NCBI GenBank assembly: GCA_040954595.2
Contig: CM082577.2
Coordinates: 13,647,903-13,711,902 of the forward strand
DNA: 64,000 nt
Reading direction: 5' to 3'
Source of the DNA: Balanoglossus misakiensis
Lineage: Eukaryota > Animalia > Hemichordata
Part shown: piece by piece, positions 28,741-64,000 of the stretch
Layout: every line of letters starts with the position of its first letter
How positions within the stretch are numbered: position 1 is the first letter of the stretch
Translations under genes and position numbers: made by a program
Notes under the pieces: generated by a model
Databases searched by the model: none
What the model was told of the DNA's origin: nothing
What the model saw: only the letters and a program-made list of their open reading frames with translations

Positions 28741-28793
28741 GTCATTCTGTCGTTTATTGGAACTGGGGGAAAAAGGGGGTCGATGGTGGGGTC

Positions 28794-43238: not shown

Positions 43239-43371
43239 ATGTTATCTCTAGCCCGACTTATATTAACTACTTATATTCTTACCTGCCTCGTTTTGTGTCG
43301 CAAAGTATCTCCATTAATGCAAGCGAAGCATCACACCACTAATGACCAAATGGATGCCTTAACGAGCAAAG
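43239..43371 (+). CDS. Exon 1 of GT4/TRADD-N/ZU5 gene: signal-peptide-like N-terminus
   Basis: ATG in atcatcATG; MLSLARLILTTYILTCLVLCRKVSP hydrophobic leader; AAG|gtaagt donor, phase 1, in frame with exon 50320. Confidence 0.6.
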
Positions 43372-43577
43372 GTAAGTACTGCAGCTTAATTCTTTGAATA
43401 ATTAAAGTAACCGCTGGAGTTTTGTGATAGGGTCGTATGTATGTAAAGTAGTACCAATCAACGCGTTCGCATGCATAACACTGCAGTGTGTTATTGTTTG
43501 ATTGATAATAGACTCAGGATTAGTCGCGTGATAGCGACCGGGGGGACAAGTAAATGCACACGGATGAGCGTGTGCAT

Positions 43578-43579
43578 GC

Positions 43580-43610
<31 letters not shown>

Positions 43611-43696
43611 TGTATGTATGTATGTATGTATGTATGTATGTATGTATGTATGTATGTATGTATGTATGTATGTATGTATGTATGTATGTATGTATG

Positions 43697-43735
<39 letters not shown>

Positions 43736-43769
43736 ATGTATGTATGTATGTATGTATGTATGTGCATGC

Positions 43770-43800
<31 letters not shown>

Positions 43801-43840
43801 TGTATGTATGTATGTATGTATGTATGTATGTATATATGTG

Positions 43841-43872
<32 letters not shown>

Positions 43873-43903
43873 TGTATGTATGTATGTATGTATGTATGTA
43901 TGT
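43578..43903. repeat. (TATG)n/(TG)n microsatellite, left flank of the Penelope element
   Basis: Seen directly. Confidence 0.98.
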
Positions 43904-43941
43904 ATAAAGAAGGGTAGTAGGAGAAACGGGAGGCGGTAAAA

Positions 43942-43988
43942 TCTCTACAACGCTGTTTCGTGAGTCACTAGACTCACTCATCAGGAGA
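43942..43988 (-). ncRNA. Minimal type I hammerhead ribozyme in the 3' pLTR
   Basis: Minus strand reads UCUC-CUGAUGA-GUGAGUC-UAGU-GACUCAC-GAAA-CAGCGUUG-UA/GAGA: full catalytic core, stems I-III, GUA cleavage triplet. Confidence 0.88.
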
Positions 43989-44127
43989 CTAATCTGGCGA
44001 AAATGCAAGGGGAAGGCGCGTTTTTATGCAGGTACACAGGTGGTGGAATGTAGGTTGGGGTGGGCCGTTTTGCATAACAATGTGTATGGCTGGTGATATG
44101 CATGTGTTGTGTGGGGAGTTTCTAGAT

Positions 44128-44601
44128 TTAGTTGTTGCGTAACAATGCTTTGTGTCTGTGTCGACAAGAGGACACAAGTTCGTTTCTTTTATTAAGTGTG
44201 GAAATTTCTGGGTTGCGAATGATAATAAATTTCTCTGTTAAGCAGAGGTTGCACCGTTTGGTTGCGCTGTTGTATAGCTTGGCTTTGGCTAGAATTTTCC
44301 ATGAAATAGTGTGGGCGATGTTGTTGTCCTTCAGAGTCCAAATATGTTTGCTGAGTTCGGTGGAGTTCCTGGAGCGTGCGAGTCGGAAAGATGAAGTGTG
44401 GTTTCTGTATCTTGTTTTGAAGTCGTTCTCGGTTAGTCCGACGTATGTATCAGAGGTGTTGTTGTCTGTGCGCGTAACTGTGGCCTGGTAGATGACGGAG
44501 TTTTGGAGGCAGTTACCGTCGAGCGGGCATTTGTCCTTTTGTCGGCAGTTGCAAGTCTTGGTGTTGTCGCTCTCGTCTGTGTTGTTGTCGTGCGATTTCA
44601 A
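44128..44601 (-). pseudogene. Penelope/Naiad GIY-YIG endonuclease domain
   Basis: TCNCRQKDKCPLDGNCLQNSVIYQATV...YVGLTENDFKTRYRNH...CNLCLTEK...LNKRNEL...CRH. Confidence 0.92.
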
Positions 44602-45685
44602 GATGCGTTTGTTGTGGTTGTCGATGATCTGCGCTTCGTGTTGTTCATACAGCTGTAGCTAATTTTCAGCGTGTTCCTGTTGAATATTTTCCTGAGTTTG
44701 TTGTCTTGCGGGAAGCATTTGTCTATGAGAAGGAGGAATTTCTGTCCGATGTTGGTGCTGACGTTTTTGCTGAATGGGGGGTTGTACCAGATGATGTTGT
44801 TTCTTTGTATGTCTCTTCTTTTATTCGTGGTGGTTGTTGGTTCGTAGCGTAAAGTGTATTGGTATCCGCTGGCGTCGAGTGCTTTTTGGTATGGCGGGGC
44901 GGCTTGGTCGGATGATAGCTGGGAGAGTCGCTTGTTGATTCCGGCTGGTATGTTCTTGGTGATGCTGGTGGGGTGGTTGCTTTCGCCGTGGACATATTGG
45001 AGTGTTGTGTTGGGCTTTGTGTAGGGTTGGTATGTGTTTCTGGCCAGGTTGAATGTGACGTCGAGGAAGTTGATGACTTGTTTGTTAGCTTCGATGGTGA
45101 TTTTGAGACCGTTGATTTTGAATATTCGGCAGATTTCTTTCTTTATGTTTTCTGTGGATCTCGGGGTGGCGTCTGTGATGGCTAGTCCGTCGTGTCTGTA
45201 TAGTCCGATGTTGTTGCCGAATTTATTCTGTAGCTGGGAGAGGAGGAAGCTGCCTACCAGTTCGCATGTTTCCGCACCGTCAAAACTGCCCATGGTGACA
45301 TCGAATGGCTTGGTGCTTTTCGTCTGCCATGATTGTTGTTTTTGTGTTAGAAGGGCGTTTTTTACGTGGATGACGATGTTGCGTTCATCGGTAGTTATGT
45401 TGTCGTAGGCGGAGGCGAAGTCAAGTGCTTTGTTGAGGTTTTCGCTGATGGAGGGGTAGAATCCTCGATGTCGAAGCAGATAAAGTTGCATTTTTCCTTG
45501 TTTTTGATGAGTTTGAACTATTAGACTACAGCTGATGTGTTTTTCCATTGGTTGACCTCGGTGGATGCTGTGATTTTCTTATTTATACGGTCGAGGATTT
45601 CTTTGCTGATTTTGCCTATTTCTGATTTGGTCGGGTTGATCAATCTGCAGGTGGGTTTGTTGGCAAAATTCGGTTTGTGGTCTTT
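44598..45685 (-). pseudogene. Penelope/Naiad reverse transcriptase (frameshifted, YRDD mutated to YRHD)
   Basis: [51 protein letters not shown]. Confidence 0.9.
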
Positions 45686-48600
45686 TGTATCACCCCAATA
45701 TGTAATAATTAACCCAATATGTAATACTAACCCAATATGTAATAACGCCTTAACCCAATATGTAATACTAACCCAATATGTAATAACACTTAACCCAATA
45801 TGTAATACTAACCCAATATGTAATAACACTTAACCCAATATGTAATAAACTTTAATTCTACATGTAATAAACGTTATCAGCTAGCTGCATATGTAATAAG
45901 CGTTAACCCTATATGTTATAAACTTGAATTTTACATATAATAAACGTTTTCAGTTAACCCTATATGTAATAAACGCTAACCCTATATGTAATAAACTTTA
46001 GTTCTACATGAAATAACGTTAATTCTACATGAAAAAGTACGTTATACGCTAACCCTATATGTAATAAACTTTAGTTCTACCATAGACCCTAGAGAAAGAA
46101 GGACGCGCAACTGCGGCAAAGATCAAAGGGTTTCTTTTGCATATAATTAACACCTAGGACTGTGGCATGTGTGAATCTCCACTTTGGCATGCGTCGATGT
46201 CATTAGCATATCATTAACATATCACCAAAAAATAAACGCAACTCTGTGATGCGCGACAGTAACCAAAACTGGCACTCCTATTTCAGCAGCCACTGCGTTT
46301 TTTTTCTAAAATTCAAAAAGTATTACGTTGTCTGTGCTATTTATTATGGTTTGGTGTTCGTCTGTCGGTTGAACGGTCATTTCTAGTGCCACAAGCTTCA
46401 TTTAAAAATTGTAAACAAATCATCCATGTTTTTTGCATGTCCGACTGGGCACTCATACTTCTTGGTAATGCTGACACTTTTCGTAATAATTTTATGTTTG
46501 CGTGAAGCATTGAAACAAAAATTGTGGTTTAGGGGCATTTTATTTCGCAGTGAGTGAACAATAAACAGATTTCACGAAAACAATTTGTAAACAAACTGGG
46601 TGGATTTTCACGTGTGCGCTATGGCCGCCATCTTGGTTTTTCATGGTTGACGACAGCAGGCAACCCTCGGTACGGTTAGCTCACAGCCTTGTCAAATACC
46701 GACTCTGTTAGACAAAAGATGCTTGATTTGGACGCTGTAAGACTCAGAAGTGCCAAATTCGTGTTTAACTTGTCCAGATGTGTTCCATAAATGATCGCTG
46801 CAGTTCAACCGCGTTGCAGTTTTCTCATCTCCTGCGAGATGTTTGTGATAACTTCACGCAAAACGCGAGACTTTGCGTTAGTTTATACATAGTTTATTTG
46901 CAAATTGGATTATTGGGGATTATCCGGAAATAATGTATGCAAAAGAACATCGTTTCAAGATAAACCTGGAGTTGCGCGTCCTTCTTTCTCTACGGTCTAT
47001 GGTTCTACATGAAATAACGTTAATTCTACATGAAAAAAACGTTATTAGTTAACCCTATATGTAATAAACGGTAACCCTGTATGTAATAAACTTTAACCCA
47101 ATATGTAACACTAACCCAATATGTAATAACACTTAACCCAATATGTAACACTAACCCAATATGTAATAACACCTTAACCCAATATGTAACACTAACCCAA
47201 TGTGTAATAACACTTTAACCCAATATGTAATACTAACCGAATATGTCATAACACCTTAACCCAATATGTAATACTAACCCAATATGCAATAACACTTAAC
47301 CCAATATGTAATAAACTTTAATTCTACATGTAATAAACGTTATCAGCTAGCTGCATATGTAATAAGCGTTAACCCTATATGTTATAAATAACAATCTGTG
47401 ATATCACAGATTGGGTTTGTAAATGTATGAGGCGTTCCCCTTCTGGCTCCCCTGCCTTCCCCATCTCTTCTTCCTTTGTCTTTCCTTCCCCCCTCTTTTG
47501 CACTCGTCACCTGGCGTCCCCCCTCTACTCATTTGCATATCCTTTGTCTTATCCTCTAATTGCTCTCTCAATCTCCTCAGTTAGCGTCTTTGCCCTGGCT
47601 TCCATTGGAGTTCCAACTGTGAGCCACAACTCACAGCTCATTGTGCCTTCCACCTGGGCCGACTCTACACCGTCCGTCCCCCAGGACCCCCACCATTGGA
47701 CAGCACTACTTCCGGTGCCTCCGATGGATTCCCCCGGGATAAATGTGGGGAATTAGCCCGGTTGTTGCAGTCCCCGGGTGGGTGGATCCATATACTAACA
47801 GCCGATAGTAATAGTTTTGCGAAATATAGCATAAAGGTAGAGGTTCAAACAACAAAAATATACCTTGATTTCATGTGGATGTAAAGGTTAGGTAAATCTA
47901 TCACTATGTTAACTTTACCAGGACTATCAAATGTTACTGGAACTTGCAAGTAATTCCTTGAAGTATGTTAAACAATAGGGTTTCCCCCTCTATCACCACC
48001 TCTATTGAAAATAGATGAAATAATATTATGGTCTTTTCTCGTAAAAAAAATACAAGCGACCGTTATTACATATTAGGTTAATGAAAAACATTGAGTTTAG
48101 TTTTAAAACATGTTTAGTAAGGATTCTAATTCATATTCAGATATAATTTCATATTGATTTGGTGTATTTCATTTAGCTTAGCATTAAAATACATTAGGGC
48201 AGTGTTATTACATATTGGGTTAAGGTGTTATTACATATTGGGTTAGTAATACATATTGGGTTAAGGTGTTATTACATATTGGGTTAAGTGTTATTACATA
48301 TTGGGTTAGTGTTACATATTGGGTTAACGTTTATTACATATAGGGTTAACGTTTATTACATATAGGCTTAACTAATAACGTATTTTTTCATGTAGAATTA
48401 ACATTATTTCATGTAGAACTTAAGTTTATTACATATAGGGTTAACGTTTATTACATATAGGGTTAACTAATAACGTTTTTTCATGTAGAATATGACAGAA
48501 CTTCATGACCTCTGCGCGCGATCTGTGCGGTATGGATATTATTTTCATGAGTGAGAAGGTGTATTCTTCCGAGTATTTTTACGAGCGACAGCGATAATCG

Positions 48601-49188
48601 CATCGGCAATATTTGAGAAACTGGCGATAGCGAGGGATATTCCGAGGTTCCCAAACATACTGCCAATTAATGTTTTGTTATTCTGACAAAATTTGGGAAG
48701 GATAAGACAATGGCGTCTCCGAATGTTGAAAATTCCCCACGTTTCGGCGATCATACTCCAGCTCTGCCGACGGCGTTCAATGTTTACAAACAAAACGTAG
48801 TCCGGCTTGTTTTTACTCATTTGCATATGGGTTGTGAAAAATACCACTTTGTCACGCGCACAACTAAAACAACAATCGGCTTTTTTGTGACTGAAATAAA
48901 ACTTTTGTTATATCCTCCGGAGGTTTATATGAACTCCAAGTGATTGTGTAACAGAACGAGGGTTAAACTTTGAAAGATACGATCGATTGAAGGGGAAATA
49001 GGGGATCTTATTCTTCTGGATGCTCATTTGCATATGAGCTCGCAAAAATACCAGAATTATTTTTGCACGGCCCGCTTGGAATACTGTAGTACATATGCAA
49101 TAATTAACGTTATTTCATGTAGAATTAAAGTTTATTACATATAGGGTTAACGTTTATTACATATAGGGTTAACTGAAAGCGTTTATAT
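45686..49188. mobile_element. Foldback-like insertion with inverted TAACCCAATATGTAATA minisatellite arms
   Basis: Arrays read TAACCC(A/T)ATATGTAAT on + at 45690-46080 and 47010-47390, and the complement at 48200-48490 and 49100-49188; GTCTTT duplicated at 45680-85 and 49189-94; removal restores Penelope ITLKDHKPNF. Confidence 0.8.
46081..47001. mobile_element. P-superfamily-like non-autonomous element nested in the minisatellite
   Basis: ~32-bp TIR catagaccctagagaaagaaggacgcgcaact / agttgcgcgtccttctttctctacggtctatg; 7-bp TSD GTTCTAC at 46074-80 and 47002-08; CATAG termini. Confidence 0.8.
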
Positions 49189-49711
49189 GTCTTTCAGGGT
49201 TATGAATGTGTCTTTGTTGGCCGTGATGTCTATTCTGTCATCGATGTCAAGTTTCATTGCGATGTGTTTGTTATCGTTGTGGACTGCTTGGGTAGTAGCG
49301 GGGTTGGCTTTTTTGTATGATTTGGTGATATTGCGTTCTAACAGGTCGTTGTAAGTCGGGGGTCTAGCTTGTAGAAGTTTGTGGTTTTGTCTGCAGCGAT
49401 AAGTAGTTTGGTTTCTTTCTTGATACATTGGGCGTCATCTTTTAGCTTGTTAAGGAATGGGTTGCTTACTTGTTTGAATTTTGTAGACTGTATTATGTTG
49501 AGCATGCCGTCTTCGAATTCTTTCAGTTCGTCGATTGGGGGTGGGTTCTTTGTGGACTTGAAGCCGTACGTCTGTTTGCAGGATGAGGCGGGGTTCGGGT
49601 GAAGGAAGAAGTGGGCTTTCCATCGTGCTCTGCGTAGAAACTGCTCTGTCTTCTCGATAAGGCGGTGCAGGTATTCTTTTCTAGATGGTAGCCGGTGTTG
49701 AATTTCTCCAT
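49189..49711 (-). pseudogene. Penelope/Naiad ORF N-terminus
   Basis: MEKFN.. then PSRKEYLHRLIEKTEQFLRRARWKAHFF, YGFKS, ADKTTNFY, FITLKD; frameshifts. Confidence 0.88.
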
Positions 49712-49848
49712 GTCGGGTAATCGTAGAGTGCTCGACAAGTGCTAGACTGGAGCGAAATATACGAAGTATGCGGTTCGACTGGTCCGATTCCACCACCTGT
49801 GTACCTGCATAAAAACGCGCCTTCCCCCTTGCATTTTCGCCAGTTTAG

Positions 49849-49895
49849 TCTCCTGATGAGTGAGTCTAGTGACTCACGAAACAGCGTTGTAGAGA
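49849..49895 (+). ncRNA. Minimal type I hammerhead ribozyme in the inverted 5' pLTR
   Basis: tctc CTGATGA gtgagtc tagt gactcac GAAA cagcgttg TA gaga; predicted cleavage after 49891. Confidence 0.88.
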
Positions 49896-49990
49896 TTTTA
49901 CCGCCTCCCGTTTCTCCTACTACCCTCTTTATACTCCGCTCTACTCTTGTATTTAGCACTTTGTATCGGACCAGTCGAACCGCATACCTT

Positions 49991-50097
49991 GTATGTATGT
50001 ATGTGTATGTATGTATGTATGTATGTATGTATGTATGTATGTATGTATGTATGTATGTATGTATGTATGTATGTATGTATGTATGTATGTATGTATG
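49991..50097. repeat. (TATG)n microsatellite, right flank of the Penelope element
   Basis: Seen directly. Confidence 0.98.
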
Positions 50098-50319
50098 CAA
50101 GCATGCGTGCGTGTCTTCGTGCGTGCGTGCAATTATGTATGGACGTATGTATGGTACATTGGGCAGAAAAATACAAAAATTGAATGGGAACGTAGAACAA
50201 AATCACTAAACAAATTGAATATCCTCCTGATCCCCTGGAAGTAATGTCGGGACATTTCCTTACGTCAGGAAAATATACATTCACTGAAATATGTTTTCTC
50301 CAATTTCTATAATTATTAG

Positions 50320-51597
50320 GGACTGGCGTCCTGATAACTGGTACTGAGTGGTGGTCACGATCGGGAGACTTTTTCTGGAACATCGTTCAAAAAGATTTGG
50401 TCACACAGCTGACAAACAGCGGGTATGATGTTTATATCACTGTGTTTGAACCTTCTGAAGATGAAATCGCGGATGCTAAAAATAATAAAGTTAACTTAAT
50501 CATCGGCAATGCAAACACACCCGGGACAATAACACTTTCGCATCAAGAACGTCTTATGCTCCACAAACACTTCTTTCCGGATCTTGACAAATTGAACAAC
50601 ATCTCAGTAGTTATCGGGTGTGCAAACAACGAAAGACTTGCCATGGCCGCTCGCAGTATACATGAGACGATATTTACGAAAACCAGTTTAATACTAGTTA
50701 TCAACTACATACCCGAGGACGCTGACTTGAATCCCGATTGCGTTGAAGAACGTGAAGAAGAGATTCTAGAATATGCTGAAAAGGCACGGTTCATCATCTC
50801 AATAGGTCCAAGAATATATAAGCATTTCAAAAATAAATTTCGCGCAGGCATACAAACAGAACATATCCAAATCATCCCACAGGTCGACAATATGTTGTTA
50901 GACATGAATATTCGTTCGGCGTCATTAGAGGACACCATTGAGATTTTAACATTCGATTTTTCATCAAAGAACACCGAAGAATGTACTAAAAACTTGGGGA
51001 TTTCTGCTCTGACAATTGGTAAAATTGCAAATGATTTTGAAAATTCAAAATATATCAAGTGGAAAATTCGAGGACTCCATCCACCAATCTCAACCGATTG
51101 CAAGAAAAGTCTACAGAACATTTCTAATTCTCGATTCTTATCCATTCATCCGTACAACTTAGAAGGAAGCATCATGCCAAAGGCTGTAAGAGATTTTCAA
51201 CAATGTCATTTGCATTTATTTGCCCCTAAAAACGACCCATTTGGTATACTCAGTTTTATGTCGAGCGCTGCTGGTGTACCTACATTAAGTACTGTGCATT
51301 CAGGATTTTCTGAATTTGTTCAAAAGAACATGACACATCATTTTAAAACTGTTGTTGTCGATAAGCTTGGAATTAATGATGACGAGAAACAAGCGGCAGA
51401 GATCTGGTGGAGTAGGCTGGAAGGAATACTAAGTCACGAATCCCAGTATACAGCATTTTGTGAGAATGCGAAGAAACTTCAGGAGGACTTGAAACGGTGC
51501 ATACGAAATGGAATAATCGCCATGTACTGGGAAACGTTTTTGGACATGGTGAAATGTGAAGTTCATGGGAAGTTGTATCAAAAAGGTAATATCGAAG
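50320..51597 (+). CDS. Exon 2: GT-B fold family-4 (conflict-type) glycosyltransferase-like domain
   Basis: Acceptor ttattag|, open 1278 nt, phase 1-1, donor GAAG|gtaaga; GVLITGTEWWSRSG..., ILEYAEKARFIISIGPRIYKHF, KAVRDFQQCHLHLFAPKNDPFGI...AAGVPTLSTVHSGFSEF match GT4-conflict motifs. Confidence 0.85.
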
Positions 51598-51797
51598 GTA
51601 AGAAACGGTCATTTCATACTGACAGACAGACAGACAAGACAAGACAAGCAGACTGACAGACGTCTTACATAGGTAGACAGACAGATAAAAAGAGTGTTAA
51701 GAGAGAAAGGTCCACACTAAAAATGAGGAAAAAAATCTTATTTTTAGAAAATGTTTACAGTTTAATGATTTATTGCACTTTTCCTTTGATTTATAAG

Positions 51798-51887
51798 ATT
51801 TCAGATATGGCAGATATCAAAATCATAATGGTCGCAATAAATCACCCCGGTCGACGACATCTAACAATGTTTACTTCACTACAAATG
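51798..51887 (+). CDS. Candidate exon 3: low-complexity linker
   Basis: ttttcctttgatttataag| acceptor, 90 nt open in phase 1 (DFRYGRYQNHNGRNKSPRSTTSNNVYFTTN), AATG|gtaagg donor. Confidence 0.5.
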
Positions 51888-52234
51888 GTAAGGTATATCT
51901 AACTAGTTATAGTAAAACGCTCCCTGTTGCGCTAATTGTTATTTTTCAGCAAGGCATGTGAAATACAAAAGCAGGAAAACTTCTGCTCGTCGTTAGATAG
52001 GCATAATTATAAAATGATTGAAATAACTTCGCCGCTTTCCATTTATTTATTCTCCTGGTACACATAAACCTTCCTCTTTTCGTTGCTAAAACAGTGCCGT
52101 TATTTTGTCAATTTTACCATAAACTTGACCTCCACCTGGTCCAATACTTCATTCGATTCATCTCTTTACGATGGTCCCTTAAAGCTCAATGAGCTGCAAC
52201 TTTAAGGATAATTACCATACCTTTTTTCAAACTG

Positions 52235-52712
52235 TATGCACTGAAGTATAAGTACTATTATTATACATCCAGTGCCGAGAACAATAGATTTTGGCGTGCA
52301 ATAAAAAGCCGTACGGAACGGTACGTACGGAACGCGCGTTAAATAAGTCTTTAGTTTCAAGGCGCCCCAACTCACCGTGTACAGGTATGCGTTGTTATGC
52401 GGACGGTTTCAAGACACCCCCACTCCAACGCACGTGCGCACACGTAAACAAAAAAGAAAGATGGCTGCTCACTGAGTCAACTGAGCGGTTTTCGATCGAT
52501 TGTATCGGCATTTTGGGCGTTTTGAAAGCCAAGTAACATGCAAAACAAGAACTAACGGAGATGTAAGATGTATAATAATAAGGTTATTACGAAAATACCG
52601 CAATGTATGCACTCGGACATTAGCGCAGCGCATCGCCCTCCGCTACGCGTCGGGCGATACTCAGCGCTAATGTCCTCGTGCATACTTTGCGGTATTTTCG
52701 TAATAACCTCAT
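52235..52712 (-). mobile_element. Crypton-like non-autonomous element with terminal hairpin 52581-52709
   Basis: aggttattacgaaaataccgca...tgcggtattttcgtaataacct palindrome, related to 32849-32992. Left boundary approximate. Confidence 0.55.
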
Positions 52713-53180
52713 ATCATCCCTAATGCAAGTTTTATCCACACAAAGAATAAAGTGGGGCCGCAAAGGAATATGGCCGCCATCGTGTGGAAAGGCAAAATAC
52801 AGTGGAAACGTTGCATTCCCCACTTTGAAACGTCATCAACAAAGCATGATCCATTGAGACATTTTTATTTTGTCATTGCAATATTTCGTAGTTTTTAAAA
52901 TTGCTCGAAATTTCAACTGTACTGATATTTTTTTTTTCAATTTTGTAGAACATTTTGTCAAAAATAAGGTCTATCTTGATATAGTATTGGGCAATATCAT
53001 TTAATTCTTAGAATTAAAAGCCTTTGCAAGATTATCGGAGATATTTAAAGCTTGACACATGTTATTGAGTTGAAGCTCATGGGGCTTTAACAAAGACATG
53101 TATGTGTTCTAAACTAGTCAATAAAATAAGGGAATATTGTTTAGATAACCCTTAATTGCTGTTATTTATTCCATTTCCAG

Positions 53181-53531
53181 GTAGTCTTCAAATTGGTGTT
53201 GAGGGAGTGAAGGAATCAGTGGACAAAATACTCCGACAAATAAAATCATGTAAAGACATACCATGGCTTGAAAAATTTCTACATAATCTAGGAATCGAGT
53301 GTCTCAACATCGGACATAATAGTTTGTCGATAATTGTCCTGTGTCCAAACATCACATCACTGGAATCATTATGGACTTCCTACAAAAATGGTTCTCTTCA
53401 CCAAACTATTCAAATGAATTTGAACGCCATGACGGACCTTAAGATACCGGGCAAAACTATAAGGTTTACAACAGTAATAGAAACTTGGCGATATTTCAGA
53501 TGCAAAGTGGAGTTAACTGTTCTTGGAAAAG
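53181..53531 (+). CDS. Exon 4: TRADD-N-like domain
   Basis: ccatttccag| acceptor, 351 nt, phase 1-1; LGIECLNIGHNSLSIIVLCPNITSLESLWTSYKNGSLHQTI fits the TRADD-N-like signature (..gSl.i.v.C....L..LW..Y..G.L). Confidence 0.78.
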
Positions 53532-53993: not shown

Positions 53994-54160
53994 AGTCAAC
54001 ACTTGCTAACGCCAATGTTGAAATGGCACCAGAATCGTCCCTTTCATTCATCGAAAACATGGTTAAATTGACTGGTTTGGTCTTCGGCGGCTTAATTGCA
54101 GTTACTGTAATGATGTCACTTGTAGTGACAGCGATGATGGTACATGAACTCTTTCAGCTG
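53994..54160 (+). CDS. Candidate exon 5: hydrophobic, transmembrane-like segment
   Basis: ttgttccgcag| acceptor in phase 1; only open frame gives LTGLVFGGLIAVTVMMSLVVTAMMV; CTG|gtaagc donor (phase 0, which does not match the next candidate exon). Confidence 0.5.
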
Positions 54161-54377
54161 GTAAGCTTTATGTCACAGTGGAAGAAATGGTTTTCTAACT
54201 GTTGCTCATATTTGAAACAGTTGTCATTCTTCCACCCTTGACAGAATATCTAAGGCTAATGATGATTTATTGTAAGCCAAACATTAACGGATCTCTTTTC
54301 CGAGTGACAAAGTCACAGTTAGGACTTTCACAATCATTGCATTAGATTTGAACATTTAATGTGAAGGAGTGCACTGG

Positions 54378-54782
54378 TAGTGGGGCAGTTAACCAAAAAA
54401 TCGTGCACTTTGGGTTAAAAGCATGAAACTTGGTACACTTATGCATTGACCCATGACGGCCATTTTCTGATATGGATCCAACATGACAGCGCCCTCTAGT
54501 TGCGAGAAACAGACATTCATACTTTAAAATCGTGCACTTCGGGTTAAAAGCATGAAATTTGGTACAATTATTCATTGACCCATGGCGGACATTTTCCAAT
54601 ATGGATCCCAAAATACGATTTTAAAGTATGAATGTCAGTTTCTGGCCACTAGATGGCACTGTCTTTTGGGATCCATATTGGAAAATGTCCGCCATGAGTC
54701 AATGCTTAACTGTACCAAGTTTCATGCTTTTAACCCAAAGTGCACAATTAAGCCAAAATTTGGGATTTAGCTCCTGAACTAT
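54378..54782. mobile_element. Palindromic MITE-like repeat
   Basis: gtgcactttgggttaaaagcatgaaacttggtaca (54403-54437, again ~54531) is inverted relative to tgtaccaagtttcatgcttttaacccaaagtgcac (54711-54745). Confidence 0.7.
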
Positions 54783-55500
54783 AGTGGGTATACTTGAATA
54801 TTTAATAATGTACTTAGTCTGGAGAGACTTGTTTATTTGGGTCAATATGTCAGTCTGCGTGTAGTTCGAACTAATTGTATTAAAACTTAGTAGAAGTTAA
54901 TGTATCCTTCTGCTCAGGCGCCACTTTAAGGTAACTTTTGTTCTTTCGGAATCGAACTTTCGACTGGTGTTCGCCAACATTTTAAATGTTGGCGCAATTT
55001 ACGCATGTTCCAACTGTAGTCTGTCATATTATATTGTGACTCAGACAAGCATCATCAAATATTATTATGGATTTAAAAATATTCCCTGCTTATATCTGTA
55101 CCTTATTCCGTCCAGAAGAGCAAATTATAAGAACCATTTTCTTTTGACCTCGATTCTCTTGAATTTACCCAAAGGCATACCACATCAACCTACGAGAGAC
55201 GTTAAGCACAAAAGACTCTCAGAAGTCAGACCAAATGGGTGAGTAAAATGCAGTTTTGGATAACAACGTAGGTATGTTCATATTGACGAGAAAAAGAATT
55301 AGTGTGAATACCATTAGTGATATACACCTTTGAGAAAAATATGGGATGTTATCAGACAGACATAAAACTAAATGCTCATGCACCTTTGCAGACGCAACAT
55401 GCCAAGTTTTTATCCATCAAAGAGTTTTAATGGCACATACCGTATAATGTTCCACCTAATCCCAAATTCTCTAAAACTATTTTTTATTTTTATTTTGAAG

Positions 55501-55755
55501 ATACAAAGCTACTGCTGTTCAAAGCTAACCGTGCACCAAGAGGCCTGTCATCAGCAGAAACATACTTGCAACAGATTTGTCATACGGAGAAGTGTACAGT
55601 ACAGGAAGGGCAACACTGTGACATCATACAGTTAGTGGTGCAGTGGACAGGGAAGATTCAGACCATCCTATCATCCAGACCGGAAGTTCTGTCATTACTT
55701 GGAATAACAGAATTCCTTATTATTAAACCAGGCTTTGGAAAAGTGACTAATCGAG
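55501..55755 (+). CDS. Candidate exon 6: unknown globular segment
   Basis: tttattttgaag| acceptor, 255 nt open in phase 1-1 (DTKLLLFKANRAPRGLSSAETYLQQIC...KVTNR), GAG|gtaatt donor. Confidence 0.55.
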
Positions 55756-56242
55756 GTAATTGTGATGGTATTCAATAGCACAACACATTTCAAAGTCCCG
55801 GAACATTCAGGGATGCTTGCAAGCGAGACCTCTTTGCCCATGCATTCATTTAGGTTGAGTTATGATATGGCACATCACTTTTGCTAGTGCAGTGAAGCGG
55901 CTGTTATCAGTTAAAGAATACATGTATGTACTATCATGAGTACTCGCCTATACCAGGAGAATTCAGAACTGTGCCTACGGGATGACCAGTACAATAGTGC
56001 ATTATCTGTTATCTTGAGTAAATTTCCCAGAAAATTCAGAACTGGGAGTTGGTTGAAGGACAAAAAGCTTACTAATTTTTGTTTCAAATCTCTAGGCTGA
56101 ACTGCTAATGATCCCATGACTTTACGAGTTATATTCAGGTTTATTTTGTAACATATCCAAACGTCCCAACATGATGGCATGTTCTTCAAAAGCTTCACAA
56201 TGACAAAGTGAAATATATATGACAAACCATCTTTGTTTACAG

Positions 56243-56794
56243 GCCTGGCAGAACAATTGCACAGCCATGGGTGTAAACTACGTCCCGTGTCATCAAAAAA
56301 GGAGACACTCAGTTTACTAGCTCAAAGCTTGATTCGCTGTGAATTAGGTTGTTCAAAGCGGTAAAGGTACCACACTCAGTATCTGCTAGATCTGCATGTA
56401 GCGAAGACAGTTCGGTGCGAGGTGTTGATCCTTGAGTTAAAACAAAAACAAGGCCTCGTAAACCAGCTTCAGGAAAAACTCTCGGAAGCGGAAATTACAA
56501 TCGGTGAATTGGAACATAAAACACATGCACAGTCTGTGGCAAACAAACAACTAGAAGAGAAGCTAAGTGACGCTGTGCTTGAAAAGAGCAATCTAGAGAG
56601 ACAGCTCACTGATGCTAAACAGGAAGTAGCCACAGTAAAGGATCTGTACAAAGCAAAACAAAAAGAACTTGACAAAGCAGATTCACTATTAACAGGTCAG
56701 CTTGTTCTGCTAAGTGAAGTGTCAAGAAACGTTAAGGCCACACTCTTAGAAGACACTTTTGGTGAACAAGAAGAGGAAATTGTCAAAAAGACAG
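56243..56794 (+). CDS. Exon 7: coiled-coil region, contains an in-frame TAA at 56362-56364
   Basis: tttgtttacag| acceptor, 552 nt, phase 1-1, ACAG|gtaagg donor; heptad-rich LVNQLQEKLSEAEITIGELE...; one premature stop. Confidence 0.65.
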
Positions 56795-58466
56795 GTAAGG
56801 GACAACAGAGAAACCTATATTGGGAATTCTATTGATTCCATTCAGTAAAGCCCGCGATGACAAATGATGCCAGGGGCAAACCTGAATTGCATGGATGTTA
56901 TAATAAGTGAAAAATCTCCAGCAATACTTTCTTTGGCATTTCCAAGCGCCATCTCTCTACTCCAAACAGATGCTTTATTAATGACCTGGTAGGAGGAAAG
57001 ATTGACATTCTGGGGTAAAATGTCAGTGCACAAAACATCTTGGGGTGAGCACCAAATATGGCCGGTAATCTGATATCATATTTCCCAGAGAATAACACTG
57101 GTGTACAACAGAAATATGACACCAGCCATCCAGAATATAATACTACTGTAAAATTGTTGTTTAAAGCACTGACTTGAAATATTATTAAACATCCTATGAA
57201 CAACAAGTATACAAAGCATTGTTCTTTAGGCATTGTGGCGTTTGCTGCATTTTAATTTTACTGCTAGGTGAACATGACACGTTCCCATGAGACTCGATGG
57301 GAAAAAGCGCCCTCACATCCGTGCAGGTTTTTTTTATTTTGCTACCGGGCAGGTGACCATATTTGGAAGACGCGTTCAATATCAGGATCTTCTTCTGTTT
57401 TTATTTCGCGAGATTCAAAAGTTGTCATTGCTACGTTCTGAATTCCATTTGTCTGGTGTCAGTGACTATTATAACACACCATGCAGCGAACCCTTGATCG
57501 TGATTTGTCAATACGCCGTCATGTGACCTTATTCATTTCGAACTGTTCCTTAGGGCATCAGTTCGATCGGTTTCTGCCCGGTACTGTTGCCTGGATGTGG
57601 TGTGTGTCGTGTTTGGTGTGTTATAAAACACATGATAACTGACATATTCGGGCAACAGTGTATTTTGATGACCGGGGGCGCTGCTAGTCACAACTAAAAC
57701 AGTCTTGTTTTCCCGAGGGCACACACTATTTTGGTGTGACTGGCAGTCCCGAGGTGTATAGTGTTGCACTTGCAGTGTGTGATGTCCATGCCCGGCGTCC
57801 ATGGTGTATGCCGCTAATACCGAATCATCCTCTCCCCTTATCACTGCATGTTGTAGAGCTTTATTTGGAAATATGATCATCTTAGTAATATGGATGATTT
57901 GATCAGATTAATGTGTGACTGTCAGCGTCGGTCGTTGCGAGGAGAAAATAATATCTCGTTCGCGCTCGGCTGTGTGAGTTTGAGCGCGTCTATATCTCAG
58001 GTGCAATAGAATGTAAACAAATGACATCATGCGTATCATTCCGCAAGAGTTCGACGAATACGGCTCTATGCTACGTGATTGATCATTTCAAAACGATAGA
58101 TGAATACATAATATTTACATTAAAAAATATTACAGAATGTGTTTTTTATTAATTTCTTGTATAATATCATTCAATAATGCATACCATAAAACCTTTACGG
58201 CCCAGATGCGGTCAGTCGCTTCCGCCGTACCACCGAGGTGCTGCGAAACCCGTATCAGGGCCGTAAAAATTGTTAAGAAGGTGTAATTTGGAGACAGCGA
58301 GCGATTCAAACTTGAATATCTTGTGATAGAGAATAACATGAAAAGACCACTATTTGGGCTTGAAATGTTTCAGGCAAATGGTCTCTTATTTCAAGTGAAT
58401 GTCCATATGGGGAGCCTGTTCTCAGCTGTATTTAAAAAAAATACGTCTTACAGAAAAGTATATAAA

Positions 58467-58811
58467 GGGACAAAGTCTCTCTCTCGCAGGCCTTTTCCCA
58501 TTAATTATGTTTGATACAAGACACTGTTCATGTCATTCAACATGTGGATATATAGTGAATCAACATTCAACAACACACAACGTCCATCCCGTTTATAGGA
58601 TATGAGAGTAAAAATCCCGCCAAAATGAATAAATGGTAAACACCGAGTATTCATTTTGATGAGTTTTTCACTCTCGTGTCTACAAGTTGCATGGAAGTTG
58701 TGTGTGGTTGAACGTTGATTCACTATATATCCACATCCAGAATAATATAAACAGTGTCTTGTATTGAATATAATTAATGGAAAAGGGGCAGTGAGAGAGA
58801 GACTTTGTCCC
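58467..58811. mobile_element. Foldback MITE
   Basis: gggacaaagtctctctctc...tgtggatatatagtgaatcaac is inverted relative to gttgattcactatatatccaca...gagagagagactttgtccc. Confidence 0.75.
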
Positions 58812-59027
58812 TTGATATTAATTATATTTCTTTTCTAGTCAATTTTTTTTACATTTTGACAGTTTGTTTCTGAAGACTTTCAGCCTGACCTATGCGTGGC
58901 CTATGACATATGTCAGGGTGTTTTTTCATAGCCAATTCTAAATCATACTGGAGCACTGTAACTGATTTAACTGACTTCCAAAATAACTAATAACACAGCT
59001 ACTTTCTGAATACTTCTTTTTCTCCAG

Positions 59028-59177
59028 ATCAACAACATAAAGATCAGCGATCCCAGTCAAAGGAAAAAGGCAGTGGTGCTGAGTCGGATCAAAAAGTATC
59101 AGCTGATGAAGAACCACAACCTATTGGCTGTACAGAGCACATTACTGAGAGGCAACGACTCGGGGGTGAAATGGAAG
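59028..59177 (+). CDS. Exon 8: acidic/polar linker
   Basis: ttcttttttctccag| acceptor, 150 nt open, phase 1-1, GAAG|gtgaga donor. Confidence 0.7.
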
Positions 59178-62100
59178 GTGAGAGTTGTATGGAAATCAAC
59201 ACTTTTCACGAGAGGTTCGATATGAGTGACTTTTACACCTGTCATCAGACTAAATTGTGGAATATACTGCAATATTGAATGCTAAACTGATGTAGCTTGC
59301 TTGAAACCCTGGTTAAGGAGACTCCATACATTCCAAGAATATCACATATAAATAAATCAATACAATATTTTCAGCATTTAATTTAAGACTCAAAGGAAAG
59401 TAAACTTTTTCCACATTACATATAAAGACAAGTCTGACTAAACCTGTTTTGTGCTTTTTAGTTGACAACTCATTTACAACGATAGGGACACTGAACGTCT
59501 TTTCCGTATATTTAAAAAGTGTGAATGGCAACTTTGTTCTGTTTTTGATTTACAATTAGATCATGACCTATTTCTGTTAGCAAGAATAGTAGCATTGGGG
59601 TAAATTTCCCGTGAAAATTACAATAACATCAAATTGTATCGCTTCCTATATCTCTTACAGAGACCGATTCATATTGAAAAAATGCGTAACATTAACATGG
59701 CGAGTTTTTAAAAGAGCAAACAATTAGACAATAAGTTTGTCGCATACTCAATAGCCTGGACACTTATTTCATGCAGTCTGATACAAACTGTGTTCCTAGG
59801 TCACTCAGGATTTCTTCGGGGACTCCCGTACGACTAAACATGTCAACCAAAGCCTCAGCTACCGTTTGGGTGTCGATGTTCTTTAAAGGCACGGCATCCG
59901 CATATCTCCTAGCATGGTCTATACTGGTGACCCTTCTCTGATGGAGGCGATATCTTCGCCATGATATCTACAGACACTCTTTTAAAAGGGATGTCATTCA
60001 GTGGAGCTTTCTCCAGGGGAACTTTAGTTACCTTTCCCTTACTGATGGTTCTTTGACAGACATCACAGGATCTGCAAAATCACGACACTTCTCCATCAAT
60101 CGCTGGCCAATAAAAACTGCTGAGAATCTTGTCAGTGGTTTTCTTAATCCCCATATGCCCTCCGGTTATCCAATCGTGCGCCAACTCCATCACTTGGTGT
60201 CGTAAAGAAGTAGGAAGCACAACTTGGAACATTGGGTTTCCATTGTTTACTTTCTAATGTTGATATACTCGATACAGGATGTTGTCTCGGACGTCAAAAT
60301 ACACCGACCTCGACCCTCGAGACTATGGCTCAGTTTGTCCCCGTATTTTGTTCAATGATTCGTCCGCTTTTTGCAGCTTGATCAATTCATCCTGAGACAC
60401 CTCTTTGTGGCCTTCTGTCCCAAAGGATTAGTCTTATTTGGTTTCTTTGCCTGTGCTCTAGTCGTTACAGCACAGCTTTCTTGCCATAATGGATATGGAT
60501 AATTTGGATGGCGTGCGCCATCAATATTACCAATCAGAAGGTCGTATGCTGCATCAGGTAAGCAAGTGGCCTCCACCTCTCCTTTGTAGTAAGGGGTATC
60601 CACTTTGACCTTAGCCGTTGGTGCTTTTCGGAAGGTGTTATCAGCGAGTCTCATAACTACCATATTTCCTGTATACTGATCTCTCCTCACGAACCGATCT
60701 TTGAAAATCACAACATTGCAACCAGTGTCTCGTAAAGTGTCATCTGCGAACTCACTTACTCGAACACTTTTCGAACACTTTTCATTACAACAGAGGCCCT
60801 CAAACACGGTACCGCTGACCCATTAGCCAGTTGGAGTTGACCATCGGATATACACTCTTCCACTTTACTGGTAGGACAAGAGATCTTACAATAGGAAGAC
60901 ACTTGTTGCTCCACGTCTCTGGAAGTTGTCTCTGGAAGGAAAATATAATGCCTCAGCGGTGTACATTTACTTCCATGAGCTCATGTGGATGAGATCATGT
61001 TTTGTTTATGAAGTTTCATAACCGGAAATGCAAAATTTTCATTGTTTCTTGCATTTTCCCACGGTGGCGACTATATTCGCTTGCGGCAAAGGTTTATTAT
61101 TTATCTGGTTAAAACTTGCATATGCACTCATATTTAGAGTTTATAATGCTTGTGTATAGTTCACTGCCTTCATCCACATGGACTAATGGTAGTACCGTTT
61201 GAAACAAAAATTATGATAATTATCCCAAAAGTTGCAGCTTATGTGCCTTTAATGGCTTTCAGTTTCCTACAGTCTCTTGTTTCGTGAGAGGTACGATCAC
61301 AAATTGCACATCGCATGGAGTTGCTTGACGCTGACTTTCTTGCGGGACAGGATGCATACAAATGTCCTACCTGGTCACAATTATAGCAATGAGATTTTTG
61401 CGATGTTTTTCCTTGTCCGTCTTTAATTTCCCTCTGGACTCTATGCTGAGGTGAAAATCGTTGCCTTCTGACAGGTGGTTTGTCTTTAGAGGGACAGTTC
61501 ACCTCCAAGTGTAGCTTGGTATTATGTGCAGCAATATAGTGGTATGCATATTTGGCCAAGTCTTCCAAATTTTGTGGACCCTTTTCTTTCAAATGGGTTT
61601 CAAGGGCTGGTGACACAGAATTCAGAAACTGTTCTTTATGAACAACTCTCGAAGACCTTCAAACGTTTCTGGGGTGCTGGATTGATCCATCCATTTCTTC
61701 AGAACATTACGCAGCGTAAATAAATACTGCTCTAAATTCTCCCCTTCTTGTAGGGTCTCCCTGAATCTGCGCTGAAAACCCTCTTCTGACATTAAGTCAT
61801 ACCTTTTATACAAGGCTCTTTTGAGACAGTAATGCCGCTGTGTCCGACAAACCACTGTATACTCTCAGTGCGTTACCCGTCAGTAGAGTGCTGAGGTAAG
61901 ATGCCCATTTCTCTCTTGCCCAGCGGTTGTCTTCAGCAAATCTTTCAAAACTTCTTAGATATGCATCTATTTCGTCCTTCCCACCTAGAAATCGCGGCAA
62001 ACTAGGAGCTTTTCCCTTTACTCTGCCAGTGATGACAGGTTCAGTGATGACAGTACCAGTTTTCCACTTGACTGCTGTACACAAATTTCATCCGTATATA

Positions 62101-62210
62101 AACGGGCTTCTGCTGCTGACAATTCACTGTGTCATAGCACTGCGAATGTTCGTTATCTGGTGAAACAGCACCAATCTGGTGATATTCTTCCTCCAGTAAA
62201 ACCGTACCAA

Positions 62211-62227
62211 TCCTGGCAGGCTCGCCA
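62211..62227 (-). other. Primer-binding site complementary to tRNA-Arg(ACG) 3' end
   Basis: TGGCGAGCCTGCCAGGA, 2 nt inside the LTR end. Confidence 0.8.
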
Positions 62228-62229
62228 AT

Positions 62230-62736
62230 TGTCACAATACAAGCGTTGCGCTGTCGTCAGGAGTAGATTCGCAGACCGCCACAACGTAGTGACCTCCAGG
62301 TTCTTTTATATTGGTTGGTGTAACACTGAAGGAGACACACAGGATATCGCAATAGCAAGTCTTCACCATGAAAACACCAGTGAACTTTATTCACTCTGCT
62401 GATACAATCGCTCAACGCGACTCCAGAACAAATCCAGAACTGCGCACCGAACTCAAACTTCGCTCTAAATTTATAGTCAACTCGTTACTAAAAATAAGTA
62501 TGACATCATATCTAAAAATAAAAATATGATGTAACTTTCTAAAATTAACCACTCTAGAAACTTCATGAATGTTCTAACAGGGTCTAATCAATTCCAACTT
62601 GACATTCAAATGACCTTCTAGAATATTCCTAAAATTTCTAATACATTCCAATGTACAACATGTAAACTACATCACAAGTTACTACAAACTGTAAATAGAA
62701 ATATATATAATAATGAAATAACAATGTCTTGTGACA
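62230..62736 (-). repeat. 5' LTR (507 bp)
   Basis: TGTCACAA...TTGTGACA inverted termini; TATAAA on the minus strand near 62468-62474. Confidence 0.88.
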
Positions 62737-62906
62737 CAGTGCATATCAAATGAAAAACAGACTTGGAAGGCTCATATTGTAGTTGAAACCTAAGAAATGT
62801 ACAGTTTCAAGCTTGACTTATAATTGTTACACTATATACTGGTGCATTCATTTATTGTCAACATCACTCTCAGAAAAATAACTCCCCTAAAATATCTGCA
62901 TTTCAG

Positions 62907-62953
62907 AGGATATCAACGACCAACGATTCCTTCTGTTCATTGCTGCTAATGAG
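62907..62953 (+). CDS. Exon 9: short exon preceding ZU5
   Basis: ctgcatttcag| acceptor; 47 nt converts phase 1 to 0, as exon 63148 requires; GAG|gtaggc donor. Confidence 0.6.
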
Positions 62954-63147
62954 GTAGGCATGACGATTGAAGTAAAATCATTTTATTTGAAATTACATAC
63001 AATAGCCCTAGTCTATGGAACTTTGCTTTTGCTTGCAAATGCTTTTTAGGTTTATGACAGAATTTAGTTTACACTTTAACCTTCAAAAGTGAAGATTTCC
63101 AGACCTGTTTCTGATTTATAATGATTGCTTTTTTCCCCTTTATAAAG

Positions 63148-63438
63148 GAAAAATGTTCCTACAAATTACCATGTGGATTTTCACTCGAGGTCCCACCAGA
63201 ATGTGTGGAAGAAGACACAGCATTGTTGGTCACATGTAACAAGAACGTCACCAAGGTCCCTCTTGCAGACTTTGAATGGTACGAGTCAGATGTCCTTGAT
63301 TTTGCGGCAGATCACATTAAACTGAAGAAACCCGTCTACCTGGTGAGGAAATGTCTAAATGTTCAGCCCTTTGAGAGAGAACAGATCATCCTGACAAGCA
63401 AAAATGGTAAAACATGGGAAGAGTTAAACACTGTTGAA
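63148..63438 (+). CDS. Exon 10: ZU5 domain
   Basis: CGFSLEVPPECV...VPLADFEWYESDVLDF...KLKKPVYL...REQIILTSKNGKTWEEL fits ZU5; ttttcccctttataaag| acceptor and GAA|gtaagt donor, phase 0; next acceptor ttcag| at 63984 continues past the window. Confidence 0.8.
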
Positions 63439-64000
63439 GTAAGTACATCTGCACAGTGAAATTTTACTACACTTAGAAATGCCATTCTTTAAGTGATATT
63501 ATTTCAGTACACACATATGTATGGGTATTTATACGTCTCCATGTTTTATCAAGAAAAAGTGGTGAAAACTGGAATCTACCACACATTCTCCCATCCAAGA
63601 TTGTAAACAGGTGAGATTTGCACGATGTTGGTCGGCCACCGTACATACCCTCCAGCACAATATAACAACCAAACAAGTATAAGTGTACTTCTTGCAGTTG
63701 TACATAAAAGTCCTTGCTAAAATTCATGAAAACTTTTTTTGTGAACATTGTATACAATTGTTGAACATACAAGCATACACATGAAGACATGACATTCTGT
63801 TTTCTATCCATTTCCACAAAGCATTTACATGAATATGTAATTACATTATCAGTTATTGCAGCCACTTCCCATTTGGCAAAATAAAATGCAGTTTCTCAAT
63901 AGACCAGTATGTTTCACTAGATTCTGACCATACACTAAGAAAAGTAAAAATGATATTAATTGTTAAATGTTCATTCATATTCAGGAAAACAATCATATCA

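What the first reader, a model, noticed from the sequence alone, without database searches (positions are those of the whole stretch)
43239..64000. Modular immune-like gene: signal peptide - GT4-conflict - TRADD-N - TM-like - coiled coil - ZU5
Seen: phase-compatible exons with canonical splice sites (43239-43371, 50320-51597, 51798-51887, 53181-53531, 53994-54160, then 55501-55755, 56243-56794, 59028-59177, 62907-62953, 63148-63438, 63985->). Established: GT4-conflict and TRADD-N domains are components of bacterial ternary conflict systems and occur in invertebrate NLR/Death-domain proteins; ZU5 occurs in PIDD/UNC5/ankyrin-type Death-domain signalling proteins and can autoproteolyse. Inference: this combination with a secretory leader and a possible membrane span could be a lineage-specific receptor linking glycan or nucleotide-sugar sensing to TRAF/Death-domain signalling. 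I know of no characterised protein with this architecture.
Basis: partly seen in the sequence, partly recalled or inferred. Interest (0 to 1): 0.85.

Follow-up and report, generated by a model that had tools for sequence, protein, structure and literature searches.

The report
Surface pseudo-glycosyltransferase receptor with broken tail
This is a spliced animal gene, closest to acorn-worm proteins, that puts a likely inactive sugar-transferase domain and a TRADD-N domain in front of a predicted membrane span; it likely derives from an immune receptor, but as assembled its coiled-coil and ZU5 tail is cut off by a frame break and a stop codon, and most of the domain layout is already listed in a 2021 survey.

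Summary
The exons and domains are real: GT4-conflict 108.5 bits; TRADD-N by homology to catalogued DEDD2-clade proteins; ZU5. Exon 53994-54160 exits in phase 0 while 55501-55755 needs phase 1, and exon 56243-56794 holds an in-frame TAA (56362-56364). No good bridging exon exists. As assembled, the product would stop 44 residues after the membrane exon, so coiled coil and ZU5 are disconnected. The closest relative, Ptychodera flava XP_070551336.1, is colinear from leader to coiled coil. Saccoglossus SIG+GT4+TRADD-N+TM proteins are tabulated in Kaur et al. 2021. An unnamed domain follows the membrane span. No relative links this layout to ZU5, and expression is untested. Verdict: new variant of a known family, probably a damaged or short-tailed copy.

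The parts
42883..42908 (+). Possible upstream exon end with in-frame ATG (would add 23 residues before the hydrophobic leader); unverified
   Evidence: Donor GTAAGA at 42909 and acceptor at 43196 give an open frame into exon 1; no transcript
43239..43371 (+). Leader exon: predicted signal peptide or signal anchor, phase 1 out (acceptor at 43196)
   Evidence: Hydropathy peak 1.99 over residues 2-20; hydrophobic N-termini in 5 of 6 paralogues checked; no SignalP available
50320..51597 (+). GT4-conflict domain, GT-B fold, degenerate donor-binding motifs; phase 1-1
   Evidence: Pfam PF20706 108.5 bits; model pLDDT 81.6; Foldseek GT-B hits E 3e-12; motif alignment
51798..51887 (+). Linker exon, phase 1-1
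   Evidence: Open in phase, canonical sites; colinear with the P0011 linker
53181..53531 (+). TRADD-N domain, DEDD2 clade, Ser kept at the beta2-beta3 turn (N-S instead of G-S); phase 1-1
   Evidence: phmmer hits to XP_006820812 and XP_006811676 clusters, listed as TRADDN-DEDD2 in PMC8195603; Pfam 18.3 bits, below cut-off
53994..54160 (+). Exon with predicted transmembrane helix (54077-54133); exits in phase 0, out of step with the next exon
   Evidence: Hydropathy 2.32; phases; same position as the TM of P0011, P0012 and P0007/8/9/13
55501..55755 (+). Unnamed ~85-residue alpha/beta domain ('X'), shared with hemichordate relatives; phase 1-1
   Evidence: Score 106 vs P0011, 0 of 500 shuffles; HMM of five relatives without the window row finds it at E 2.5e-8; low-confidence ferredoxin-like model, pLDDT 56.8
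56243..56794 (+). Spacer plus coiled coil, with in-frame TAA at 56362-56364; phase 1-1
   Evidence: Translation; coiled-coil Pfam hits below cut-off; heptad bias
59028..59177 (+). Charged linker exon, homologous to the post-TM tail of Ptychodera paralogues; phase 1-1
   Evidence: Score 62 vs P0009 (0 of 500 shuffles), 45 vs P0013 (2 of 500)
62907..62953 (+). Short exon, likely first strand of ZU5; phase 1-0
   Evidence: Open, canonical sites; strand assignment is inference
63148..63438 (+). ZU5 domain, main exon; phase 0-0
   Evidence: ESM Atlas 0.96, 189 shared features, PF00791 79%; only PDB hits are ankyrin ZU5 regions, E 0.27-0.7; Pfam 14.7 bits
63985..64000 (+). Start of next exon, runs off the window
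   Evidence: AG acceptor, open in phase 0

Best explanation
This is a member of the hemichordate GT4 + TRADD-N family with a predicted type I membrane topology, whose likely inactive GT4 domain likely acts as an outward-facing binding module, and whose cytosolic half is disconnected in this copy by a phase break and an in-frame stop. Shown: domains, exon phases, both lesions, colinearity with Ptychodera XP_070551336.1 and degenerate motifs. Inferred for the intact ancestor: a cytosolic GT4-TRADD-N-X-coiled coil protein gained a leader exon and a TM exon between TRADD-N and X. This moved GT4 and TRADD-N to the lumen or cell surface. The GT-B cleft binds a glycan or other foreign ligand without transferring sugar, receptors cluster through the coiled coil, and a ZU5 module (probably followed by UPA and Death, outside the window) relays the signal as in UNC5 or PIDD. 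Inferred for this copy: splicing 54160 to 55501 gives a 717-residue protein with a short tail, a decoy-like form or a decay-prone transcript. It is a recently damaged paralogue or null allele for signalling.
For: Colinear global alignment with P0011 from leader to coiled coil; GT4 49% and TRADD-N 44% identical. The order GT4-TRADD-N-X without any TM between TRADD-N and X occurs in Glandiceps P0026 and P0033 and Ptychodera P0035. The seven leader-clade GT4s form one branch, 96/96 support, apart from four forms without a leader. Against a bacterial GT4-conflict (L001, 378 bits) that keeps HGG, R..K and EGFGLTGLE, 0 of 11 hemichordate rows keep GG, 0 of 11 keep the Arg (Asp in 7 of 7 leader-clade rows) and 0 of 11 keep the second Glu (same register against glycogen synthase and WaaG). 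PMC8760489 passages assign these residues to donor binding. Lesions. None of 46 open phase 0-to-1 candidates in the intron has strong sites or resembles the P0011 linker, and no good internal site bypasses the TAA. Short tails (9-98 residues) occur in 5 of 6 TM-bearing Ptychodera proteins.
Against: No transcript or read evidence; both lesions could be assembly errors or one allele. Homology across the TAA is weak (11 of 500 shuffles reach the score; the part before the stop alone 188 of 500). The first acidic residue (Asp), the Lys (5 of 7 leader-clade rows) and the whole fold are kept, and PMC8760489 notes that one Glu is expendable in some GT4 enzymes. Only one bacterial comparator was aligned and its branch is long. 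No ligand is known. 0 of 22 TRADD-N hits carry ZU5, so the ZU5 step has no homologue behind it. P0011 is a database prediction, and four of the six TM-bearing proteins come from one contig.
Confidence: 0.55

Rival explanations
1. The gene is intact in the animal: the two lesions are consensus errors or a rare allele, or a weak exon bridges the phase, and a full receptor leader-GT4-TRADD-N-TM-X-coiled coil-ZU5 is made.
For: Only two lesions; all splice sites canonical; exons 6, 8, 9, 10 fully open. Every other exon from 2 to 8 is phase 1-1, so a single-base discrepancy near the TM exon's end would account for the phase break. A 64-base candidate exon (55175-55238) has about the length of the P0011 linker.
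Against: Two independent errors within 2.2 kb are needed. The 64-base candidate has poor sites (acceptor -4.3, donor 2.7) and no similarity to the P0011 linker. It would not remove the TAA.
Confidence: 0.22
2. Two transcription units: the membrane GT4 gene ends soon after the TM exon, and the ZU5 exons (with or without X and coiled coil) belong to a separate downstream gene.
For: Read-through of the TM exon gives a short basic tail. Paralogues P0009 and P0013 end within about 11 residues of the exon-8-like segment. A retroelement-like insert lies between exon 8 and the ZU5 exons. 0 of 22 relatives have ZU5, and no Saccoglossus row of PMC8195603 that I saw has it.
Against: X and the coiled coil follow the TM in P0011, and exon 8 matches post-TM tails of paralogues, so exons 6-8 belong to this family by descent. 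Exon 9 begins at an acceptor whose phase matches exon 8.
Confidence: 0.15
3. The GT4 domain is an active lumenal or surface glycosyltransferase with an altered donor, which tags pathogen or self glycans. (Independent of whether the tail is intact.)
For: Complete, confident GT-B model; first acidic residue and Lys kept; many invariant positions; PMC8195603 proposes GT4 as an effector that modifies invader molecules.
Against: GG loop replaced by GD, Arg by Asp, His at the end of strand 4 by Asn, second Glu by Met. Two acidic residues now sit where pyrophosphate would bind. The relatives without a leader are equally degenerate.
Confidence: 0.13

Closest known systems
Ptychodera flava XP_070551336.1 (P0011; uncharacterised, 896 aa)
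   Same: Leader, GT4-conflict, TRADD-N, TM, domain X and coiled coil in the same order; GT4 49% and TRADD-N 44% identical; same degenerate motifs
   Different: Open frame through X and the coiled coil; ends there with no ZU5 on record
Saccoglossus XP_006823290.1 and XP_006819467.1 in Kaur et al. 2021 (PMC8195603 source data)
   Same: Listed as SIG+GT4+TM / GT4+TRADDN-DEDD2+TM+LRRs and as GT4+TM+TM+Snf7 / TRADDN-DEDD2+TM+Coiled-coil
   Different: LRRs or coiled coil as tail, no ZU5; sequences not fetched here; the parts of the paper I read treat GT4 as an enzymatic effector and do not discuss this topology or motif loss
GT4 + TRADD-N (DEDD2 clade) expansions of cnidarians, cephalochordates and hemichordates (PMC8195603)
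   Same: GT4 directly before TRADD-N, variable tail, retroelements nearby
   Different: Typical members lack leader and TM; where I saw ZU5 with GT4 (Acropora, Branchiostoma) it precedes GT4
UNC5 receptors and PIDD (ZU5-UPA-Death; recalled)
   Same: ZU5 in a predicted cytosolic tail; for UNC5, type I topology
   Different: Different ectodomain; UPA, Death and the cleavage motif lie beyond the window and are untested; the tail is disconnected here
Bacterial GT4-conflict effectors (e.g. L001, Rhizobium plasmid WP_257623507.1)
   Same: Same Pfam family and alignable over the domain
   Different: Keep HGG, R..K and EX7E; no TRADD-N, TM or ZU5 seen in that comparison

Membership tests
GT4-conflict (PF20706) | Profile score above curated cut-off over the whole domain | tested here: met
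   108.5 bits vs 26, profile positions 2-374 of 385
GT4-conflict (PF20706) | GT-B fold of two Rossmann domains | tested here: met
   AF2 pLDDT 81.6, pTM 0.79; Foldseek top hits GlgM, glycogen synthase, MshA, BshA, E 3e-12 to 1e-11
Catalytically active GT4 | EX7E motif | tested here: not met
   D-X7-M at 51234-51260; second Glu absent in 11 of 11 hemichordate rows
Catalytically active GT4 | Arg and Lys that hold the donor pyrophosphate | tested here: not met
   Arg column is Asp, Lys kept; role from PMC8760489 passages; one bacterial comparator only
Catalytically active GT4 | N-terminal Gly-rich loop | tested here: not met
   R-S-G-D against bacterial L-H-G-G (also WP_055624376.1 in the paper's alignment)
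Catalytically active GT4 | Sugar transfer in vitro | not testable with these tools
   Needs an assay
TRADD-N, DEDD2 clade | Homology to catalogued members | tested here: met
   phmmer E 3.6e-8 and 8.9e-7 to clusters of XP_006820812 and XP_006811676, both TRADDN-DEDD2 in PMC8195603; 7 of 22 hits pass Pfam's cut-off
TRADD-N, DEDD2 clade | Pfam PF20694 above cut-off | tested here: not met
   18.3 vs 23.7 bits; the catalogued Saccoglossus members also fall short
TRADD-N, DEDD2 clade | uS motif at the beta2-beta3 turn | tested here: inconclusive
   Ser kept, preceded by Asn rather than a tiny residue
TRADD-type adaptor (TRAF recruitment) | TRADD-N in the cytosol | tested here: not met
   Lies between predicted leader and TM; topology is predicted from hydropathy, not measured
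ZU5 | Sequence similarity to ZU5 | tested here: met
   Atlas 0.96 with 189 features, though recognition 2248 is just under the 2300 guide; three of three PDB hits are ankyrin ZU5, E 0.27-0.7; Pfam 14.7 vs 21
ZU5-UPA-Death receptor (UNC5/PIDD type) | UPA, Death domain and autoproteolysis motif after ZU5 | not testable with these tools
   Beyond base 64000; no genome held
ZU5-UPA-Death receptor (UNC5/PIDD type) | ZU5 in one open frame with the TM | tested here: not met
   Phase break and TAA in the assembly
Second TRADD-N in exon 55501-55755 | Profile similarity to TRADD-N | tested here: inconclusive
   hhalign probability under 1% on shallow alignments; ferredoxin-like but low-confidence model with generic hits, best Z 7.7

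The most novel reading that the evidence does not exclude
Hemichordates have a clade of cell-surface pattern receptors built by flipping a bacterial-type conflict module out of the cytosol: a dead GT4 serves as a lectin-like sensor with an acidic pocket, TRADD-N is reused as a SEA-like juxtamembrane module, and swappable tails (LRR, coiled coil, X-coiled coil-ZU5, or none as decoys) supply the output. This locus would be the ZU5-signalling version, intact in other alleles.
Probability: 0.25. Interest if true: 0.78.

Novelty: new variant of a known kind. Interest (0 to 1): 0.45.

Why it matters
If the family works as inferred, it is a receptor class whose sensor is a dead GT-B enzyme, in a deuterostome group close to the chordate stem, and it shows how symmetric exons can turn an intracellular defence module into a surface receptor. 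The motif loss across 11 of 11 hemichordate sequences also challenges the published idea that these animal GT4 domains act as enzymes, and that is directly testable. For that work an intact paralogue such as XP_070551336.1 is a better subject than this copy.

Tried and rejected
No genome held for the window, so no 3' extension or paralogue count. Sequencing-run search: no RNA holder listed; this says nothing about expression, and no reads could be laid. Homologue search among longer proteins found none although P0011 lies in that range, so that search is insensitive. Profile search with A2 added only P0035. A genome scan with alignment A1 could not be run; tblastn of the window's GT4 against plasmids found no match; P0021 found one Rhizobium protein in 5 records. 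I first took 55175-55238 as the missing exon and dropped it after scoring its sites. A 13-base exon ending at the intron's best donor (54930) carries an in-frame stop. Domain X: no Pfam or NCBIfam hit, no usable Atlas hit, no TRADD-N among the top 50 VIA rows; none of this shows novelty. Earlier findings: nothing by sequence or words. Literature searches gave no paper on this locus or on membrane-bound inactive GT4 receptors in the listings; most subscription papers are not covered. No complex prediction was run. The TRADD-N exon was not folded.
Full report
Observation. The GT4 exon is open for 425 codons, about 5e-13 by chance, and matches GT4-conflict at 108.5 bits. TRADD-like_N (18.3 bits) and ZU5 (14.7 bits) are below Pfam's cut-offs and needed other support. 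The TRADD-N exon found 22 proteins among 1.84 billion representatives; 7 of the 22 pass Pfam's TRADD-like_N cut-off, and two belong to clusters that PMC8195603 lists as TRADDN-DEDD2. The ZU5 exon's best Atlas cluster is ZU5 at 0.96, and its three PDB hits are all ankyrin ZU5 regions, at weak E-values.

Exon 53994-54160 exits in phase 0, but 55501-55755 is open only when entered in phase 1. Exon 56243-56794 has TAA at 56362-56364 in the coding frame. I listed 46 open AG..GT candidates that would bridge the phase. The best combined site score is 6.9 (a 10-base exon), below the sum of the weakest real donor and acceptor in leave-one-out tests (6.6 + 2.8), and none resembles the linker of the closest relative. 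No good internal site bypasses the TAA. The direct join ends at TAG 55633-55635, 44 residues after the TM exon. That stop lies 120 bases before the next junction, so the transcript may be a decay target (inference). I could not check reads or transcripts.

Relatives. All GT4 hits are Ptychodera flava proteins at 42-44% identity, so the window is likely from an enteropneust hemichordate (inference). P0011 (XP_070551336.1) aligns colinearly from leader to coiled coil. Exon 55501-55755 matches P0011 (score 106, 0 of 500 shuffles), and a profile of five relatives built without the window row finds it at E 2.5e-8. It is an unnamed domain, here X. Exon 59028-59177 matches the post-TM tail of P0009 (0 of 500) and P0013 (2 of 500). 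So exons 6-8 belong to this family by descent. Similarity across the TAA is weak (11 of 500 shuffles; the part before the stop alone 188 of 500). No relative supports the link to ZU5: 0 of 22.

Topology. Hydropathy gives two segments in the model, residues 2-20 and 646-664. Five of six leader-clade paralogues checked have hydrophobic N-termini (best 11-residue mean 1.85-2.99; P0005 does not). The four forms without a leader score 0.75-1.25, though an older, longer model of one (P0034) scores 1.92. Six Ptychodera proteins have a TM after TRADD-N, four of them from one contig; tails are 9, 23, 44, 50, 98 and 227 residues. P0026, P0033 and P0035 have GT4-TRADD-N-X with no TM between. In a 12-row tree the seven leader-clade GT4s form one branch (96/96); the root rests on one long bacterial branch. 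The simplest reading is one gain of a leader and a TM. TRADD-N is then outside the cytosol and could not recruit TRAF the way vertebrate TRADD does. An upstream in-frame ATG at 42883 could turn the leader into a signal anchor; the ectodomain would face the same side.

Active site. The GT4 model is confident (pLDDT 81.6) and matches GT-B enzymes. A bacterial family member (L001, 378 bits) keeps HGG, His, Arg..Lys and EX7E. The window has G-D, Asn, Asp..Lys and D-X7-M. Across 11 hemichordate rows: GG 0 of 11, Arg 0 of 11 (Asp in 7 of 7 leader-clade rows), second Glu 0 of 11; first position Asp 8, Glu 2, Ala 1; Lys kept in 5 of 11. HMMER alignments to glycogen synthase and WaaG give the same EX7E register. 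PMC8760489 assigns the two Glu to donor sugar and ribose and Arg/Lys to pyrophosphate, and notes that one Glu is expendable in some enzymes. bioRxiv 10.1101/2025.10.15.682550 shows the Gly loop is needed in ALG2. Loss of several features together, with acids placed in the phosphate pocket, makes a pseudo-enzyme likely and nucleotide-sugar sensing unlikely. This is inference from one aligned bacterial comparator.

Mechanism. For the intact ancestor I infer a type I receptor: the GT-B cleft binds a foreign glycan or other ligand, the coiled coil clusters the tails, and ZU5 (likely with UPA and Death beyond the window) signals as in UNC5 or PIDD (recalled). The outside TRADD-N may act as a stalk. 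Its Ser at the beta2-beta3 turn sits where SEA domains self-cleave (recalled), and PMC8195603 reports weak TRADD-N similarity to DAG1, but the window has N-S, not G-S, so this is only a lead. For this copy the tail is cut off, leaving a decoy-like short form or a dying paralogue (0.55). Rivals: intact gene with assembly errors (0.22), separate ZU5 gene (0.15), active enzyme (0.13, independent of the others).

What is known. PMC8195603 describes GT4 before TRADD-N in cnidarians, cephalochordates and hemichordates, TRADD-N fused to ZU5/FIIND, and a link to retrotransposons. Its source data list Saccoglossus XP_006823290.1 as SIG+GT4+TM and GT4+TRADDN-DEDD2+TM+LRRs, and XP_006819467.1 as GT4+TM+TM+Snf7 and TRADDN-DEDD2+TM+Coiled-coil. 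None of the 11 Saccoglossus GT4 rows has ZU5. Of 66 ZU5 mentions in the GT4 table I saw the first 30 and those in part 18; ZU5 precedes a GT4 in each. What I saw: for PMC8195603, passages, sections 8 and 11 whole, searches of supplements 2, 4 (cut when stored) and 6, and parts 99 and 174 of file 2 and part 18 of file 6. For PMC8760489 and the ALG2 preprint, passages only. For all other papers, search listings only. Unread parts of those supplements could hold a GT4-TM-ZU5 row.

Verdict. A real gene and a new variant of a known, uncharacterised family. The lasting leads are the surface topology and the family-wide motif loss. Interest 0.45.

Noticed in passing
window 43581-50097 (intron 1): About 6.5 kb insert between two TATG microsatellites, with 102-base inverted repeats (43911-44012 and 49825-49926, 99%), AT-rich tandem arrays, and minus-strand ORFs (44128-45578, 49338-49844) that look Penelope-like from recall; no Pfam or NCBIfam hit supports the name.
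   Followed up: partly
window about 59700-62450 (intron 8): Minus-strand retroelement-like remains with a zinc knuckle (E 0.0027) and weak SCAN similarity, lying between exon 8 and the ZU5 exons; fits the published link of this family to retrotransposons.
   Followed up: partly
window 24393-29709: Fragmented LTR-retrotransposon-like element on the minus strand with integrase, reverse transcriptase and zinc-knuckle hits.
   Followed up: partly
window 21713-22186, 6977-7402, 35875-36321: DDE_Tnp_4 nuclease fragment, zf-C17orf113 fragment and a second integrase fragment.
   Followed up: no
window 22599-22913 and 30620-30925: Two near-identical minus-strand ORFs for a short charged helical peptide; likely two copies of one transposon.
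   Followed up: no
window 55501-55755: By eye, domain X resembles the C-terminal pattern of 'domain 1' from oyster TRADD-N proteins in the PMC8195603 alignments; not computed. P0026 carries two copies of X.
   Followed up: partly
P0002, P0014, and XP_006824651.1: Other hemichordate GT4-TRADD-N proteins carry FN3, or EGF plus C-type lectin, before GT4, which fits an extracellular location.
   Followed up: no
P0019: Saccoglossus GT4-TRADD-N-Bcl-2 fusion without a leader, with the same degenerate GT4 motifs.
   Followed up: partly
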